A DNA stretch of 63,779 bases, filler included, from Reclinomonas americana ATCC 50394 (taxonomy: Eukaryota): the NCBI GenBank assembly GCA_048213135.1. It is 4 parts of 3 records of this genome, joined end to end, with 100 filler letters (N's around TTAATTAATTAA, not from the genome) between each part and the next. Parts side by side here need not be neighbours in the genome. Positions count along the whole stretch, not along the records: positions 27,578 to 48,012 come from PS015183.1; 3 more parts are not named here. The stretch is one strand, 5' to 3'. The notes under the pieces were generated by a model. The model worked only from the letters and a program-made list of their open reading frames with translations, made no database searches and was not told the DNA's origin. This document shows, in pieces, positions 31,491-37,030 of this stretch (positions are counted from its first letter, which is position 1; each line of letters opens with the position of its first letter). A program made the position numbers and the translations under genes.

Positions 31491-34133
31491 TTACTCGCGC
31501 TTGCCCTTGGCGCCTGCGGCGGCGGCAGCCTGCGGAGGGCTCTGCATCGAGTCAAAAACCTTGGACATGATGATGCGCGTCAGCTCCTTTGGCAGCACGT
31601 TGAGTTGCTGTGAGACGGCGAGTAGGGTGAGTGCACAAGACTTGCATACTNNNNNNNNNNNNNNNNNNNNNNNNNNNNNNNNNNNNNNNNNNNNNNNNNN
31701 NNNNNNNNNNNNNNNNNNNNNNNNNNNNNNNNNNNNNNNNNNNNNNNNNNNNNNNNNNNNNNNNNNNNNNNNNNNNNNNNNNNNNNNNNNNNNNNNNNNN
31801 NNNNNNNNNNNNNNNNNNNNNNNNNNNNNNNNNNNNNNNNNNNNNNNNNNNNNNNNCCGCTGTGCCACGAGCGGAGACTCACGTGAAGGATCCAGTGCTT
31901 GATGGCCGGGATGCAGTCAATGTCCTGCGCACATGCATGGCCTTAGACCCACCCCCACAACTGTGGCGGTCAGCAACACAAACCTCGTAGCGTGAGTCCT
32001 TGTACAAGGCGTACAACAGCGAGAAGCGGACAACGGCGTCGGTGGGAGCCAGCATCGGGTCGCTCTTCACACGCTCCTCTCCGAGGGTCTGCACACAAAG
32101 AATGCACGCAGTGAGACGACTCGGCGGCGGAACAGGTGGCCACGAGGCGGAGGGTCAGACGCAACGCGCTTCGCAATGTTGCTGACCGTCGGTCCGGGGC
32201 ACAGGCACTGCAGGGAAGAGGTTACTCTCTCGAGGAAACACACGCAGTCACAATATCACATCTTCTGCACCTGCACCTGTCAGGTTGTGAAATGGTGAAG
32301 TGAGTAACAAGTCGTGTTTCTCACACACACTGCTGCAACTCACTTGAACGCCATGGACGCCCACTTCCGTGCTGAGGTTGTGCGCAAAGATACGGTTGTA
32401 GGCCTGCAACAGCAGATTTCGATGAGCAGCAAACAACGTGGCCAACTGTGCACTGCAGGAGCGGTGGCACCTTGGTGCCGCCGTAGATCGCCATCTACGG
32501 AGCGAGGATATGTGGTGAGCATGGGGAACAAGCAGATATATAGTTCGCGTGAAAACGCAACGTGGACAGCGTTCTTCTGGTGGGCCTGTGATCGCGCGCA
32601 TGCAGTTAGCGAAACACACAGCCAGCAAGTCTTTTGCGCAAAACAACAAACCGACAGCGAGGAGACGCAGATGATGAGGCCGCTCTTGCGTTCGATCATA
32701 CCCGGAGCCACCATGCGGGTCACGCGGTTCTGCGGCCAGATGTTGGTGCTGTGCGTACGCACAAAAAACTGTGAGTCGCCAATGTGCCATCACACTGCGC
32801 CAAGTTGACGCACCGCGTCATAGCATCCATCTCCTACGTTCCCGTTGCCAAAAGTGAGTACAGAGGGGTGGAGAGCAAGAAGCACGCATCACGGGCAAGC
32901 GGCGCACCGTCGTGGTGTGATCGACAAAGTAGTCCTTCGGGTTGGCCTGCGCGATTCCGACACTGGTCACGGCGACAGTGAGCACACGCCCCCTCTTCAA
33001 GCTCTCAGTGGCCGACTCACTTGTTGACGAGCACGGTGACGGTGCGAGTGCGAATGGCCTCCTCGATCGGGCGGTACACGGCCTGATCGTCTGGGTTGCT
33101 AAAGTCGACCGCGATGACGTGCGTCTTGACCTTGGGGAACTGCACGCATGGAGGAAGGCTGCTGAGTGCGGCGAGCGAAGAGGAAGCGCACGCATGGGAA
33201 AACGAACTCGCTGGTGAATCTCCTTCTCCAGCGCCTGCAGTTTCTCGGCCGTTCGCGACGCGAGGATCACATTCATGCCGTTCTCGGCCAGCTGCAGCGC
33301 GAATTCCTGCAAGTACGGAACAGTGCGTGAGTCACACAGGCTGCAACAACACGATGTAAAACGATGCGAGAGAGGAACCTTGCCAATGCCATCGCTCTGC
33401 GCGCGAATGCAACAATAGCGTGAAGTGAGTGAAAGACACAGATTACACTGTTTGCAATGAGCAACAACGCACAGCGCCAGTGACCAGAGCCCTATCAAGC
33501 GCAACCACAGAATGAGCGACACAACGCACAGTGAAAAGAAGAAGAAGAAGAGAGCCACTCACCAGAAGTTAGCTGCATGATTGCGCGGAAAACACAGCAG
33601 TCAATCAGGACTCCAGCATGCAGATAAACAACGAGTAAACCACACACACATGCGCACCTCCCGAATACTTCTCCAGGTCAACCTGCACGCCATGGCAAGT
33701 AAACAACACCAAAAACCACACCAAAACCACACCCAAACAGTATGCAAAAACAAACCTTGCGACGCGTGAGAATGAAGAACTCAAAAAGCCACTGACCCGC
33801 AGTGTAGAAGAACTGTTGCGTGGTGCACGTGCATGCATGCATGCATTCAATGAGTGAGCGAGTGAGTGAGAGAGAGAGACCATCACAATGCATGCAAAAA
33901 CACAACGCAACGCGGAGGAGCACAAAAACAGCAATGCGCGCGCCAATGTACGCCAGCACGCCCTTGGTCTGTGCAAGAGTGGCTGTGAGTGCGTGCATGC
34001 ACAACACACACAGCACTTTGTCTCTCTCTTTCTCTCTCACCTTGTAAGACGACGCAATGAAGAGCGTCAGCAGTGGCAGCAACACTGGAGTCACCAGTGA
34101 GCGAATGAAGCCCGGAGTCACAGTGAATGCCAT
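31491..34133 (-). CDS. HSD17B12: SDR-family very-long-chain 3-ketoacyl-CoA reductase-like, copy A
   Basis: N-terminal TM segments, [49 protein letters not shown], catalytic YGGTK, and C-terminal KGKRE (KxKxx ER retrieval signal). Confidence 0.8.
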
Positions 34134-34608
34134 TGCTGTGTGAGAGAGAGAGTGACTGATGCAATGCACTTGTCAACTCCGTCCGAACGACGGATATCGA
34201 GAAACTGGCGCGCGTATACAAGGAACAGCTACACAGTTGCCTGATGATCACCATCTTGAGTGAGCACCAGAAACTGTACAACACGAAAAAAAGCGAGAAA
34301 AATCGAGATGGCTTCTGGTGTTTCTGCAAGAGAAACCACGCGCAGCGTACGCGGATTTTGACGCGCGCGTACGCCGAATTACAACAGGAAGCTCAACCAT
34401 GCTCGACGCATCTTGAACGGCAGCAGCAGCTTCTTCTGCACATAGGTTGAAAAATGCGATTCACGGCATTTTCTGCAGACAACTTGATCGCGCGCGAAGG
34501 CATTTCACAATCATGCATGCATGCGCAGCAATGTAGGTAGGGGGAAGTAGAAGGGGTTCTAACTCGGGCGTTTGTTTGACTCAGCTTGCTGGCCCTGGGC
34601 GCGCGCAA

Positions 34609-37030
34609 TTACTCGCGTTTGCCCTTGCTGGCGCTGGCTCCGGCGGCCGCGGGCTGGCTGTCGGGGAGCGACTCGAGGATCTTCGACATGATGATGCGCG
34701 AGAGCTCCTTGGGCAGCGCGGTGAGTTGCTGTGCGAGTTGCGGGTCAGTGCACTGAACATATGAATTGTGAGAGACGGGGAGGCACTCAACGTAGACAAC
34801 CCAGTGCTTGATGGCCGGGATGCAGTCAATGTCCTGGTGGGGAAACACCAGTGAGTGAGAGGCTGACACACTGCATGCCGCACACCAAGCACTCGCACAC
34901 ACCTCGTAGCGCGAGTCATTGTACAGAGCGCGCAGGAGCGAGAAGCGGACGACAGACTCGACAGGCGCAATGAGGGGGTCCTTTTGAACGCGCTCCTCGC
35001 CAAAGACCTATTCGGATCTGGAGTGAGTGATGGCACAGAGCGCATCATGTGCAGCAGTTCTGGTTCCGCAACTCGAGTCACCAGGTTGCTGACAGTCGGT
35101 CCAGGGCACAAGCTCTGTCAATAGAGTGAGAGAGAGTTTTGCTGGCGTCGTGAGTGGGGGAATAGAAGCACACCTGCACCTGCAAGAGCAGTCAACGATA
35201 GGAGTGAGGAACAGGAACAAACGCAATCCACGACAAGCATTACGCACTTGGACGCCATGCACGCCGACTTCCAAGCTCAGATTGTGCGCAAAGATGCGGT
35301 TGTAGGCCTGCAGATACTGCATGAGTGCGCTGAAGTCAACAGGCAAACGAGCGCATCAAATGCCCACACCTTGGTGCCACCGTACACGGACAGCTGGAGA
35401 AAACGAGGAAGATAAGCGGCGAAATGAAGAGAGGGAGAGGAATATCGACACTGCACGCAACATTCAGAGCGTCCTTCTGGTGAGCCTGAGATCGTATTCA
35501 GCAGAGAGCACTGCAAGTGAGCTGACTCGGAGGACGCGTTGTGAATCTAGCAAGGTACAATACGAACCGACAGCGAGGAGACGCAGATGATGAGTCCGCT
35601 CTTGCGCTCGATCATGCCCGGAACCACCATGCGGGTCACGTGGTTTTGTGGCCAGATGTTGGTGCTGTGTGAGCGCGCATTAACTCTCCTCAGTCACCAT
35701 CACGGCATCGTTGTGCGAGTACAATGAATGCAAGACGCACCGTGCCATCATGTCGATATCCTGCAGTCGCGATGCAACANNNNNNNNNNNNNNNNNNNNN
35801 NNNNNNNNNNNNNNNNNNNNNNNNNNNNNNNNNNNNNNNNNNNNNNNNNNNNNNNNNNNNNNNNNNNNNNNNNNNNNNNNNNNNNNNNNNNNNNNNNNNN
35901 NNNNNNNNNNNNNNNNNNNNNNNNNNNNNNNNNNNNNNNNNNNNNNNNNNNNNNNNNNNNNNNNNNNNNNNNNNNNNNNNNNNNNNNNNNNNNNNNNNNN
36001 NNNNNNNNNNNNNNNNNNNNNNNNNNNNNNNNNNNNNNNNNNNNNNNNNNNNNNNNNNNNNNNNNNNNNNNNNNNNNNNNNNNNNNNNNNNNNNNNNNNN
36101 NNNNNNNNNNNNNNNNNNNNNNNNNNNNNNNNNNNNNNNNNNNNNNNNNNNNNNNNNNNNNNNNNNNNNNNNNNNNNNNNNNNNNNNNNNNNNNNNNNNN
36201 NNNNNNNNNNNNNNNNNNNNNNNNNNNNTCACACAGAGGACGCAACAGCGCCAGTGACAAGGGCCCTGCACAGTGCGAGTGAGCGACGCAATGGAGGTGT
36301 GAGGAGTTCAGGAGCACGACTCACCAGAAGTTGGCTGCGCCCACCGGGAGATTGAGCACACACGTCAGCCATTGATTGCAACACACGTATCGACAAGACA
36401 CTCACGCACCTCCCGAGTACTTCTCCATGTCGACCTGCACGAGCAACACGTGAGCACATATACACACGGAGAAACGAGGCAGCAGAGTCAGGCAGCAAAA
36501 AAGCCATCAGGTACCTTGCGACGAGTGAGAATGAAGAACTCAAAGATCCACTGACCCGCATTGTAGAAGAACTGCAGGTTGCATGCATGATAAGCAGCGA
36601 GTTGTCTCGCTGGAGACACAGGCCTAGGATAAAAAAACGCAACGCGGAGGAGCACAAAGACAGCAATGCGCGCGCCAATGTACGCCAACAAGCCCTTGGT
36701 CTGTGCTCACACACACACACACACGACAATCAACAAAGGAAAAAAAGGATGCGCACATATTTTGTGCGCGGATTGATTGCATAAATGCACGTGTCAGGAA
36801 TGCGAAAAACACAACACTGCTCTCATTCTCTCTCTCTCTCTCTCAACACACATACATACTTACACACACTGCTCAGCGTCACCTCCGTCTCTCACTCACG
36901 CACAAGCGCACTCTCTTTCTCACTCAATGTTTCTCACCTTGTAGAGCGAGGCAATGTACAGCGTCAGCAGTGGCAGCAGCACTGGTGTCACCAGTGAGCG
37001 AAGGAACCCGGGAGTCACAGTGAAAGCCAT
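34609..37030 (-). CDS. HSD17B12: SDR-family 3-ketoacyl-CoA reductase-like, tandem copy B (internal gap)
   Basis: Same exon structure as copy A: MAFTVTPGF start, ALVTGA, YGGTK, AYNRIFAHNLSLEVGVHGVQ, ending KGKRE. Confidence 0.8.

What the first reader, a model, noticed from the sequence alone, without database searches (positions are those of the whole stretch)
33467..36246. Natural experiment: the same intron in two paralogues uses GTGCGT in one and GTTGCGT in the other
Seen on the minus strand: both reductase copies end the ALVTGA exon with GTCACTGGCGCT. Copy A continues GTGCGTTG (donor 33472) and copy B continues GTTGCGTC (donor 36246). Three other homologous introns keep GTTGCG in both copies (32165/35072, 32561/35461, 33911/36643) although the intron bodies, and in two pairs the -1 base, have diverged. 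Inference: the two donor classes interconvert by a single T indel, and the shifted hexamer is under purifying selection.
Basis: partly seen in the sequence, partly recalled or inferred. Interest (0 to 1): 0.7.

Follow-up and report, generated by a model that had tools for sequence, protein, structure and literature searches.

The report
One-base-shifted splice donors, toggled by T
In this intron-packed eukaryotic genome roughly one intron in five or six starts with GTTGCGT or GTTGAGT, apparently a normal splice signal sitting one base out of step, and two duplicated genes show introns switching between the normal and shifted form by a single T.

Summary
Two tandem 3-ketoacyl-reductase-like genes on the minus strand end the same exon with GTCACTGGCGCT. 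Copy A continues GTGCGTT and copy B GTTGCGT. Three other homologous introns keep GTTGCG in both copies, although the intron bodies are no more alike than shuffled sequence.

GTTG[C/A]G is a real, common donor class:
- 10 of 48 donors fixed by paralogy or homology, including the MYST acetyltransferase gene.
- The most enriched hexamer in a gene finder that used no donor model (13 against 1.84 expected).

New result: these donors never follow an exon-final G (0 of 28, against 93 of 148 other donors). Their position -1 resembles the normal -2, their +7 the normal +6, and their +8 the normal +7. The whole motif is displaced by one base: A|GTTGMGT against AG|GTGMGT. That fits the "shifted register" of U1 pairing, which is rare in humans, and argues against a bulged U.

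Not tested: RNA, raw reads, and this organism's own U1. A canonical U1 5' end pairs poorly with GUUGCGU in silico.

The parts
31491..34133 (-). Reductase copy A (3-ketoacyl-CoA reductase/HSD17B12-like short-chain dehydrogenase). It has 19 exons, then gap 31651-31856, then a last exon 31607-31491.
   Evidence: open frame; [8 protein letters not shown], NNVG and YGGTK motifs read from the translation; ends KGKRE*. Pfam adh_short gave only a weak hit on one exon.
34609..37030 (-). Reductase copy B. Exons 1-6 (37030-36247) and 11-20 (35760-34609); exons 7-10 are lost in gap 35780-36228.
   Evidence: open frame, TAA stop; 189 of 227 residues identical to A, dN/dS 0.20.
33466..33472 (-). Copy A intron 6 donor GTGCGTT (standard class), after exon end GCT.
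36240..36246 (-). Copy B intron 6 donor GTTGCGT (shifted class), after the same exon end GCT. It lies 18 nt from the gap.
33905..33911 (-). Copy A intron 2 donor GTTGCGT.
36637..36643 (-). Copy B intron 2 donor GTTGCGT.
32555..32561 (-). Copy A intron 13 donor GTTGCGT.
35455..35461 (-). Copy B intron 13 donor GTTGCGT.
32159..32165 (-). Copy A intron 17 donor GTTGCGT.
35066..35072 (-). Copy B intron 17 donor GTTGCGG.
31876..31882 (-). Copy A intron 19 donor GTGAGTC (standard class), after CAC. It lies 26 nt from gap 31651-31856.
34785..34791 (-). Copy B intron 19 donor GTTGAGT (shifted class), after TAC. This is the second one-T switch.
   Evidence: The donor-agnostic gene finder also predicted it.
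8848..8922 (+). Intron of the MYST acetyltransferase gene with donor GCA|GTTGCGC, inside the Tudor-knot motif ([13 protein letters not shown]).
   Evidence: spliced alignment to 2 of 4 full-length references; donor-agnostic gene finder.
9021..9095 (+). Probable MYST intron with donor CGA|GTTGCGT. It is 75 nt, in frame and free of stops, so the frame does not prove it.
   Evidence: donor used with 1 of 4 references; the donor-agnostic run chose GT at 9030 with the same acceptor; the run with a learned donor table chose 9021.
35780..36228 (.). Assembly gap hiding the rest of B intron 6 and exons 7-10.

Best explanation
GTTG[C/A]G(T) is a genuine, abundant class of GT-AG splice donors in this genome. 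It makes up about 16-21% of donors in this window.

It is the ordinary donor motif AG|GTG[A/C]GT displaced one base downstream of the cleavage site: A|GTTG[A/C]GT. The intron's own G+1 sits where the exon-final G normally sits. T+2 occupies the slot of the normal G+1. The positions G+4, M+5, G+6, T+7 and G+8 take the places of +3..+7.

Inferred mechanism:
- U1 (or whatever reads the motif) binds in a register shifted by one nucleotide.
- The cut is still made at the only GU.
- U6 would later have to accommodate one extra nucleotide.

Where the exon does not end in G, the two forms offer the same number of pairs to a canonical U1 by hand count. A single T insertion or deletion after GT can then toggle an intron between the forms without touching the reading frame. 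That is what happened at intron 6 (and intron 19) of the two reductase paralogues.

Shown: the sequences, the class frequency, the conservation, and the displaced flanking preferences. Inferred: actual splicing, and the U1/U6 registers.
For: Observation and gene models.

Class is real and common:
- 38 GTTGCGT against 15.2 expected; z = 6.0; 30 sense against 10 antisense.
- A Viterbi gene finder that scored only GT..AG, coding potential, intron composition from +9 on and the acceptor put GTTGCG first: 13 of 184 predicted donors outside the reductases, against 1.84 expected from 39 of 3899 sense GT sites, p = 6e-8.
- With a self-trained donor table, GTTGCG was 22 of 172.
- Among 48 donors fixed by paralogy or by spliced alignment to homologues (A 19, B 15, ELP3 5, MYST 9), GTTGCG is 9 and GTTGAG 1.

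Selection: intron bodies are at shuffled-level identity, yet 3 of 3 GTTGCG pairs keep +3..+6.

Displacement of the motif:
- Exon-final G in 0 of 28 GTTG[AC]G donors, against 32 of 45 GTG[AC]G and 93 of 148 of all other donors (Fisher 4e-11). In the validated set alone, 0 of 10 against 31 of 38 (3e-6). This position was not used by the gene finder.
- Position -1 is A in 14 of 28, like the normal -2. In pseudocount-smoothed profiles, +7 is T 0.72, like the normal +6 (T 0.72), and +8 is G 0.38, like the normal +7 (G 0.35).
- Log-likelihood of the exon-side bases under the standard profile: -111.7 with a one-base offset, -151.0 with none, background -117.5.
- Among the 16 validated donors lacking +5 G, the 5 that do not fit GTTNNG all follow [A/C]AG, while the 11 that fit never follow G.

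Both T-indel pairs sit after non-G exon ends: GCT for intron 6, CAC and TAC for intron 19.
Against: - There is no RNA evidence. No RNA run was listed, so every junction rests on frame, paralogy or homology.
- About 128 of the 176 donors used for the statistics are predictions. The finder recovers 12 of 14 ELP3+MYST introns but only 16 of 32 reductase introns. The validated set is small, and A and B are not independent.
- G is already scarce before non-donor GTTG[AC]G (9 of 74) and before GTT in general (225 of 1370). Against background, 0 of 28 is only a modest depletion (p about 0.01-0.03, my arithmetic). The strong contrast is with other donors.
- With the canonical U1 5' end (11-mer printed in PMC4856993), nearest-neighbour folding gives mean -1.25 kcal/mol for the 28 shifted donors, against -7.03 for the 45 standard ones.
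- The shifted register is the minimum-energy pairing in only 5 of 28, including all 3 GUUGAG. In the other 23, G+1 is unpaired. Simple pairing to a canonical U1 therefore does not obviously explain why GUUGCGU is favoured.
- The organism's own U1 and U6 are unknown: no genome is held and the window has no Rfam hit.
- A GTGCGT/GTTGCGT pair among 15 could arise about half the time if donors were redrawn independently at the observed class frequencies (my arithmetic). The indel argument rests on parsimony and on the rarer GTGAGT/GTTGAGT pair.
Confidence: 0.6

Rival explanations
1. Bulged-U register. U1 pairs in its normal register, with exon -1 opposite C9 and G+1 opposite C8. One of the two U's at +2/+3 loops out, so GUUGCGU is read as GUGCGU.
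For: The intron-side motif after the extra T is identical to the standard one. A bulge at +3 (or +2) is an experimentally supported register in human cells, according to PMC4856993 (passages read).
Against: This register keeps the -1:C9 pair, so it predicts the usual exon-final G. Observed: 0 of 28 against 93 of 148. Exon-side likelihood is -151.0 against -111.7 for the shifted mapping. In 0 of 28 minimum-energy duplexes does G+1 pair with C8.
Confidence: 0.1
2. A dedicated or co-evolved reader. This organism carries a U1 variant (for example with a changed position 8, or changed positions 5/6), or a protein or U6-based mechanism, that recognises AGUUGCGU directly. The two donor forms would then be two grammars with two readers.
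For: GUUGCGU pairs very poorly with a canonical U1 5' end in silico, with mean -1.25 kcal/mol for the shifted class. Yet it is the commonest donor hexamer. C at the slot opposite U1 position 5 is preferred in both classes: smoothed share 0.40 at standard +4 and 0.85 at shifted +5. A canonical U1 cannot pair with that C.
Against: Nothing here tests it directly. The U1 5' end is almost invariant among eukaryotes (recalled, not checked here).
Confidence: 0.15
3. There is no special class. Donors in this genome are merely degenerate (GT plus almost anything), and GTTGCG is one frequent variant produced by composition.
For: The validated donors are very diverse: 22 different hexamers among 48. Introns are short (about 60-85 nt), which may tolerate weak donors.
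Against: GTTGCG is the single most enriched hexamer. T at +7 is 30 of 47 sense sites. The motif is conserved in 3 of 3 paralogous pairs. Its exon context is the opposite of every other donor group.
Confidence: 0.07
4. The extra T in copy B intron 6 (or the missing T in copy A intron 19) is a base-calling or assembly error near a contig end.
For: The B i6 donor is 18 nt from gap 35780-36228, and the A i19 donor is 26 nt from gap 31651-31856. TT against T is a typical homopolymer error.
Against: The class exists independently of these two sites: 38 GTTGCGT sites, most of them far from gaps. The flanking intron sequence of the two copies differs, so this is not a collapsed copy. The B i19 donor GTTGAGT is far from any gap.
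Confidence: 0.05
5. Cleavage is not at the GT. The motif is read in the normal register and the cut falls after the G (a TT... intron), with the 3' cut also moved by one base.
For: This would make every flanking preference exactly canonical (-2 A, -1 G).
Against: It requires TT..NN introns ending one base past AG, which have no known precedent (recalled). The first base of the downstream exon is not G in most cases (for example CAG|TTC in i2 and CAG|CAA in i19), so the protein would change. In i19 the conserved CAA (Gln) of copy A would become GAA in B.
Confidence: 0.03

Closest known systems
Shifted-register 5' splice sites (U1 pairs one nucleotide out of step). Roca & Krainer 2009, as cited and summarised in Tan et al. 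2016, PMC4856993. I read passages of the latter; the 2009 paper itself was not seen.
   Same: The donor has poor complementarity in the canonical register and lacks +5 G. All pairs are restored when the helix is moved by one position. The cut is still at the GU.
   Different: In humans this is a rarity. All validated noncanonical registers together are 3119 of 201,541 sites, or 1.5% (PMC4856993). Here one specific heptamer is the commonest donor: 10 of 48 validated and 28 of 176 overall. Here the register is inferred from flanking-base statistics, not from suppressor-U1 experiments.
Bulge +2/+3 register (Roca et al. 2012, as summarised in PMC4856993, Figure 1C legend and Table 3).
   Same: An extra U directly after GU, with the downstream motif intact.
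   Different: 68 predicted human sites (54 after curation). That register keeps the exon -1 pairing, which this class lacks: 0 of 28 exon-final G.
Strict GTGCG(T/C) donors of small GC-rich green algae (earlier scan notes e1-560454 and e1-562521, which cite Irimia & Roy 2008; paper not read here).
   Same: The 'standard' donor of this window, GTG[C/A]GT, has the same kind of motif.
   Different: Those genomes are described as having one rigid donor. This one has many forms plus the displaced one.
Exon-side against intron-side ('left/right-handed') 5' splice-site classes linked to LUC7 proteins (PMC11842720; only the search listing and the start of the abstract were seen).
   Same: Donors here also fall into groups that trade exon-side for intron-side matches. 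The 5 validated donors without +5 G that are not GTTNNG all follow [A/C]AG.
   Different: The GTTGMG class has neither +5 G nor an exon-side match. It makes sense only after a one-base shift.
U12-type (minor spliceosome) introns.
   Same: A second, sequence-distinct donor class within one genome.
   Different: No [A/G]TATCCTT donor (consensus recalled). The branch and 3' ends look like those of neighbouring introns.

Membership tests
U2-type GT-AG spliceosomal intron | GT at the 5' end and AG at the 3' end, with removal preserving the reading frame. | tested here: met
   All 8 validated GTTG[AC]G introns with a known 3' end run GT..[C/T]AG and keep an open frame or the homology. The 18 found by the donor-agnostic finder are 63-82 nt and end in [C/T]AG.
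U2-type GT-AG spliceosomal intron | Removal from the mature RNA at exactly these junctions. | not testable with these tools
   No RNA run was listed. No protein of this organism was found in the databases.
Shifted-register 5' splice site | Weak match in the canonical register (no +5 G) and a better match when shifted by one. | tested here: met
   +5 is C or A in all members by definition, with G at +6 and T at +7 (smoothed share 0.72). By hand count there are 5 pairs to a canonical U1 in the shifted register, against 2 plus a wobble in the canonical one. For GUUGAGU the computed minimum-energy duplex is the shifted one.
Shifted-register 5' splice site | Exon-side preferences displaced by one, with -1 behaving like the normal -2. 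| tested here: met
   0 of 28 exon-final G and 14 of 28 A. Likelihood is -111.7 with the shift against -151.0 without.
Shifted-register 5' splice site | A thermodynamically favoured shifted duplex with U1. | tested here: inconclusive
   With the canonical 11-mer, 5 of 28 fold in the shifted register and 23 of 28 leave G+1 unpaired. Mean is -1.25 kcal/mol. The organism's own U1 and the pseudouridines were not modelled.
Shifted-register 5' splice site | Rescue by register-specific suppressor U1. | not testable with these tools
   This is an experiment.
Bulge +2/+3 register | Canonical pairing of exon -1 and G+1 retained, so -1 G stays preferred. | tested here: not met
   0 of 28 against 32 of 45 in GTG[AC]G donors. 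G+1 pairs with C8 in 0 of 28 duplexes.
U12-type intron | Donor [A/G]TATCCTT (consensus recalled). | tested here: not met
   The donors are GTTG[C/A]G.
Introner / mobile intron family | Sequence similarity between intron bodies. | tested here: not met
   No base preference beyond +8 among 47 sense sites. Paralogous intron bodies are at shuffled-level identity.
3-ketoacyl-CoA reductase / HSD17B12-like SDR (the host genes) | SDR motifs and a family match. | tested here: inconclusive
   [8 protein letters not shown], NNVG and YGGTK motifs and a C-terminal KGKRE were read from the spliced translation. Pfam adh_short scored only E = 0.0042 on one 62-residue piece. The whole spliced protein was not submitted to any library. 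The family name rests on recalled motif knowledge.

The most novel reading that the evidence does not exclude
This organism runs two genome-wide 5' splice-site grammars side by side: AG|GUGMGU and A|GUUGMGU. The second is read one nucleotide out of register, either by the ordinary U1 or by a dedicated U1 variant. It serves exons that do not end in G and accounts for a fifth to a sixth of all introns. Single-T indels toggle individual introns between the grammars over evolutionary time.
Probability: 0.35. Interest if true: 0.75.

Novelty: new variant of a known kind. Interest (0 to 1): 0.62.

Why it matters
Noncanonical U1 registers are known almost only from a small fraction of human splice sites tested one by one. 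A genome in which a shifted-register donor is the commonest single donor would be useful in three ways.

- It would be a natural, statistically rich system for asking how the cut site is fixed when U1 binds one base away. It would also show what U6 does with the extra nucleotide, and whether snRNAs co-evolve with such sites.
- It has a practical side. Donor models that demand +5 G or use a fixed-register weight matrix would misplace or miss roughly one intron in five or six in this genome, which would corrupt gene models.
- The paralogue pairs show a frame-neutral mutational path, a one-T indel, between the two forms.

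Tried and rejected
- RNA evidence: one search for RNA runs with window 31857-35779; none was listed, so read laying could not be used.
- Whole genome: none is held, so U1/U6 genes and a genome-wide census were out of reach. Rfam and tRNA scans of the window found nothing.
- Organism identity was not established.
  - A WD40 search gave only generic hits.
  - The reductase read-through ORF gave no hit.
  - ELP3 is 78-83% identical to the 25 best-scoring of the fetched references, which include animals, chytrid fungi and unnamed metagenome proteins.
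  - The Atlas look-up of a glycosyltransferase ORF pointed vaguely to eukaryote clusters, haptophyte or rotifer.
- Earlier scan notes: nothing for this genome or for look-alike stretches. A word search returned only unrelated notes.
- Literature: three searches listed nothing about a donor class or an organism-wide shifted class.
  - GTTGCG with intron and splice: 20 of 428 papers listed.
  - GTTGCGT/GUUGCGU/GUUGCG with 'splice site': 20 of 126 listed.
  - 'Shifted register' with U1 snRNA and intron-rich: 15 of 48 listed.
  - Only titles and abstract starts were seen, and most subscription papers are not in the library. This is 'not found in these searches', not 'not in print'.
- First gene-finder versions were too weak: 4 of 32 known introns; 7 of 14 and 8 of 18 in cross-validation. 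Composition downstream of GT alone separates donors only moderately.
- The WD40/RING tandem paralogues (four copies) were aligned as a further natural experiment. Their shared intron has a conserved GTGTGAATG donor and says nothing about the shifted class.
- P0241, the top hit of the MYST search, gave an odd partial alignment and was not used as a reference.

Full report
**What is there**

The window is eukaryotic, about 57% G+C and extremely intron-dense. On the minus strand lie two tandem paralogues of a short-chain reductase. Its motifs ([17 protein letters not shown], C-terminal KGKRE) resemble 3-ketoacyl-CoA reductase/HSD17B12. That name rests on recalled motif knowledge, because Pfam adh_short gave only a weak hit on one exon.

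blastn of the two regions gives 11 conserved blocks, 78-100% identical, separated by unalignable sequence.

With GT..AG introns:
- Copy A reads open through 19 exons (34133-31883), a gap, and a last exon 31607-31491.
- Copy B reads open through exons 1-6 (37030-36247) and 11-20 (35760-34609, TAA stop). Exons 7-10 lie in the N gap 35780-36228.
- Exons are as short as 6 and 10 nt.

**Check of the observation**

GTCACTGGCGCT is followed by GTGCGTTG in A (G at 33472) and by GTTGCGTC in B (G at 36246). The -1 base differs in two of them.

GTTGCGT occurs 38 times in the window, against 15.2 +- 4.5 in shuffles; 0 of 100 shuffles reached 38. Under a third-order Markov model it is one of the top non-repeat heptamers, z = 6.0, next to GTGAGTG and GTGCGTG.

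**Is copy B alive, and are the donors under selection?**

Over 227 comparable codons, A and B share 189 residues. dS is 0.49, dN 0.10 and dN/dS 0.20. This does not fit a copy that died soon after the duplication.

The bodies of the 13 fully comparable intron pairs are no more alike than shuffled controls, for example 0.53 against 0.46-0.52. Ungapped identity over 15 donor pairs is 15, 15, 11, 8, 10, 10 at +1..+6, and 4-6 of 15 from +7 on. All three GTTGCG pairs keep +3..+6.

**A second switch**

Intron 19 reads CAC|GTGAGTC in A (31882) and TAC|GTTGAGT in B (34791). This is again one extra T after GT with the following GAGT kept.

So 2 of the 15 comparable donor pairs differ by a one-T indel, 3 are shifted in both copies, and 10 are non-shifted in both.

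One indel is far more parsimonious than four substitutions through poor intermediates. By my arithmetic, though, a GTGCGT/GTTGCGT pair could also arise by independent redrawing about half the time among 15 pairs. The GTGAGT/GTTGAGT pair is much less likely to do so.

In each pair, one member lies 18-26 nt from a contig end.

**Is GTTGCG a donor class outside these genes?**

I wrote a protein-to-genome spliced aligner that allows only GT..AG and uses no donor model.

- ELP3 (+ strand, 40509-41588) gave the same 5 introns with 3 of 3 references. The spliced product is 246 residues without a stop and 78-83% identical to the 25 best-scoring fetched references. Its donors are GTACGT, GTGAGC, GTGCGT, GTATAC and GTGTGT. 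None is shifted.
- The MYST acetyltransferase gene (+ strand, 8.8-10.5 kb; Tudor-knot, zf-MYST and MOZ_SAS hits) gave 7 introns with 4 of 4 full-length references.
  - It gave GCA|GTTGCGC at 8848 with 2 of 4. That junction restores the conserved HY-x3-NRRLDEWV spacing (recalled consensus).
  - It gave CGA|GTTGCGT at 9021 with 1 of 4.
  - The 9021 intron is 75 nt, in frame and stop-free, so it is only probable. A donor-blind run chose a GT 9 nt downstream with the same acceptor.

I also wrote a Viterbi gene finder. It scores coding potential, intron composition from +9 on, the acceptor, and nothing of the donor but GT.

- It is imperfect. It recovers 3 of 5 ELP3 and 15-17 of 32 reductase introns, and 8 of 9 MYST introns.
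- Because it is blind to the donor, its errors dilute any donor motif.
- Outside the reductases, GTTGCG was its most enriched donor hexamer: 13 of 184, against 1.84 expected from 39 of 3899 sense GT sites, p = 6e-8. Next came GTGCGT (12), GTTCGT (6) and GTGAGT (7).
- With a self-trained donor table, recall rose to 12 of 14 (ELP3+MYST) and 16 of 32. GTTGCG was then 22 of 172, GTGCGT 15, GTGAGT 13 and GTTCGT 10.
- GTTGCGT lies on the sense strand of predicted genes 30 times and on the antisense strand 10 times.

Among the 48 donors fixed by paralogy or homology, GTTGCG is 9, GTTGAG 1, GTGCGT 6 and GTGAGT 5.

**The new result: the whole motif is displaced**

The exon-final base was not used by any model.

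| Donor group | Exon-final G | Source |
|---|---|---|
| GTTG[AC]G, all | 0 of 28 | |
| GTG[AC]G, all | 32 of 45 | |
| All other donors | 93 of 148 (Fisher 4e-11) | |
| GTTG[AC]G, validated only | 0 of 10 | |
| Other donors, validated only | 31 of 38 (Fisher 3e-6) | |

- In the shifted class, -1 is A in 14 of 28, like the standard -2.
- In pseudocount-smoothed profiles, +7 is T 0.72, like the standard +6 (T 0.72). +8 is G 0.38, like the standard +7 (G 0.35).
- The exon-side bases of the shifted donors fit the standard profile with a one-base offset (log-likelihood -111.7). They fit without an offset far worse (-151.0). Background is -117.5.
- Among the 16 validated donors that lack +5 G, the 5 that do not fit GTTNNG all follow AAG or CAG. 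The 11 that fit never follow G.

So there are two ways to do without +5 G here: a strong exon side, or the displaced motif. In motif coordinates, AG|GTGMGTG and A|GTTGMGTG differ at one position only.

**Mechanism**

This pattern is what the 'shifted register' of U1 pairing predicts. G+1 lies opposite U1 C9, U+2 is mismatched with C8, U+3 pairs with A7, G+6 with C4 and U+7 with A3. It is not what a bulged U predicts, because a bulge keeps the -1:C9 pair.

Both registers are described for rare human sites in Tan et al. 2016 (PMC4856993; passages read). That paper counts 68 predicted bulge +2/+3 sites, and 3119 sites (1.5% of 201,541) for all validated noncanonical registers.

After a non-G exon end, the standard and shifted forms give the same number of pairs to a canonical U1 by hand count. 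That would make the T indel nearly neutral there. Both switches do sit after non-G ends (GCT; CAC/TAC).

**Evidence against a simple version**

I folded donors against the canonical U1 11-mer printed in that paper.

- The 45 standard donors average -7.03 kcal/mol. 41 of them pair +1 with C8 and +5 with C4.
- The 28 shifted donors average -1.25 kcal/mol.
- Only 5 shifted donors fold in the shifted register, including all 3 GUUGAG. The other 23 leave G+1 unpaired, and none uses the bulge register.

GUUGCGU is therefore a poor partner for a canonical U1 in silico, although it is the commonest donor. Proteins of the snRNP, pseudouridines, U6, or a variant U1 may supply what is missing.

None of this could be tested. 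No genome is held and no snRNA lies in the window.

G is also generally scarce before GTT: 225 of 1370 non-donor GTT sites and 9 of 74 non-donor GTTG[AC]G sites. Against background, the 0 of 28 is only a modest depletion. The strong contrast is with other donors.

**What was not possible**

- No RNA run was listed.
- The organism was not identified.
- Earlier scan notes held nothing on this genome.
- Three literature searches listed nothing on a GTTGCG donor class or on an organism-wide shifted class. Only the listed titles and abstract starts were seen.

**Verdict**

It is also sharpened: the donor is a one-base-displaced copy of the normal motif, common in this genome, and best explained by a shifted recognition register.

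It is a new variant of a known kind. It awaits RNA data and the organism's snRNA sequences.

Noticed in passing
32271-32276 and 35174-35179 (-); also 33563-33572 and 36325-36334 (-): Both reductase copies need a 6-nt micro-exon GTGCAG (Val-Gln) between two introns to keep the G-V-Q-V-Q-x-L-C-P-G stretch. They also need a 10-nt exon 5. Both are conserved in position and length between the paralogues.
   Followed up: partly
53614-63779 (-): A tandem array of at least four copies of a gene with a CPFCxFxIDE (RING/U-box-like) first part and a long WD40 exon. Units are about 80% identical, including non-coding parts. They share an intron with a conserved GTGTGAATG donor.
   Followed up: partly
40181-40508: The 328-N gap inside ELP3 stands for about 200 missing residues (reference residues about 49-248), so the gap is under-sized.
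   Followed up: no
27478-27577, 48013-48112, 53513-53612: Three identical gap patterns of 44 N, 12 bases and 44 N. They look like an assembly artefact.
   Followed up: no
whole window: CACTCAC/GTGAGTG is strongly over-represented: 59 against 22.2 expected. GTGAGT is as common on the antisense strand as on the sense strand of genes, 44 against 42. This fits a CTCAC-type branch-site motif inside introns, as seen upstream of many acceptors.
   Followed up: no
16859-16950 (+), inside the 668-codon ORF 15725-17731: A GTTGCGT..CAG stretch with a GT-repeat body lies inside a long open frame and stays in frame. It could be a stopless intron or coding sequence.
   Followed up: no
31491-31505 and 34609-34623 (-): Both reductase copies end in KGKRE. 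This looks like a KxKxx di-lysine ER-retrieval signal (recalled motif) and fits an ER-membrane reductase.
   Followed up: no
139-6540 (+), 10800-11600 (+), 47640-47987 (+), 48853-49335 (-): Other gene fragments recognised by Pfam: calpain (Peptidase_C2) with an EF-hand, UBA domains, isochorismatase, a DEAD-box helicase start and Tim44. The calpain-matching ORF runs up to a predicted TGA|GTTGCGT donor at 2188.
   Followed up: no
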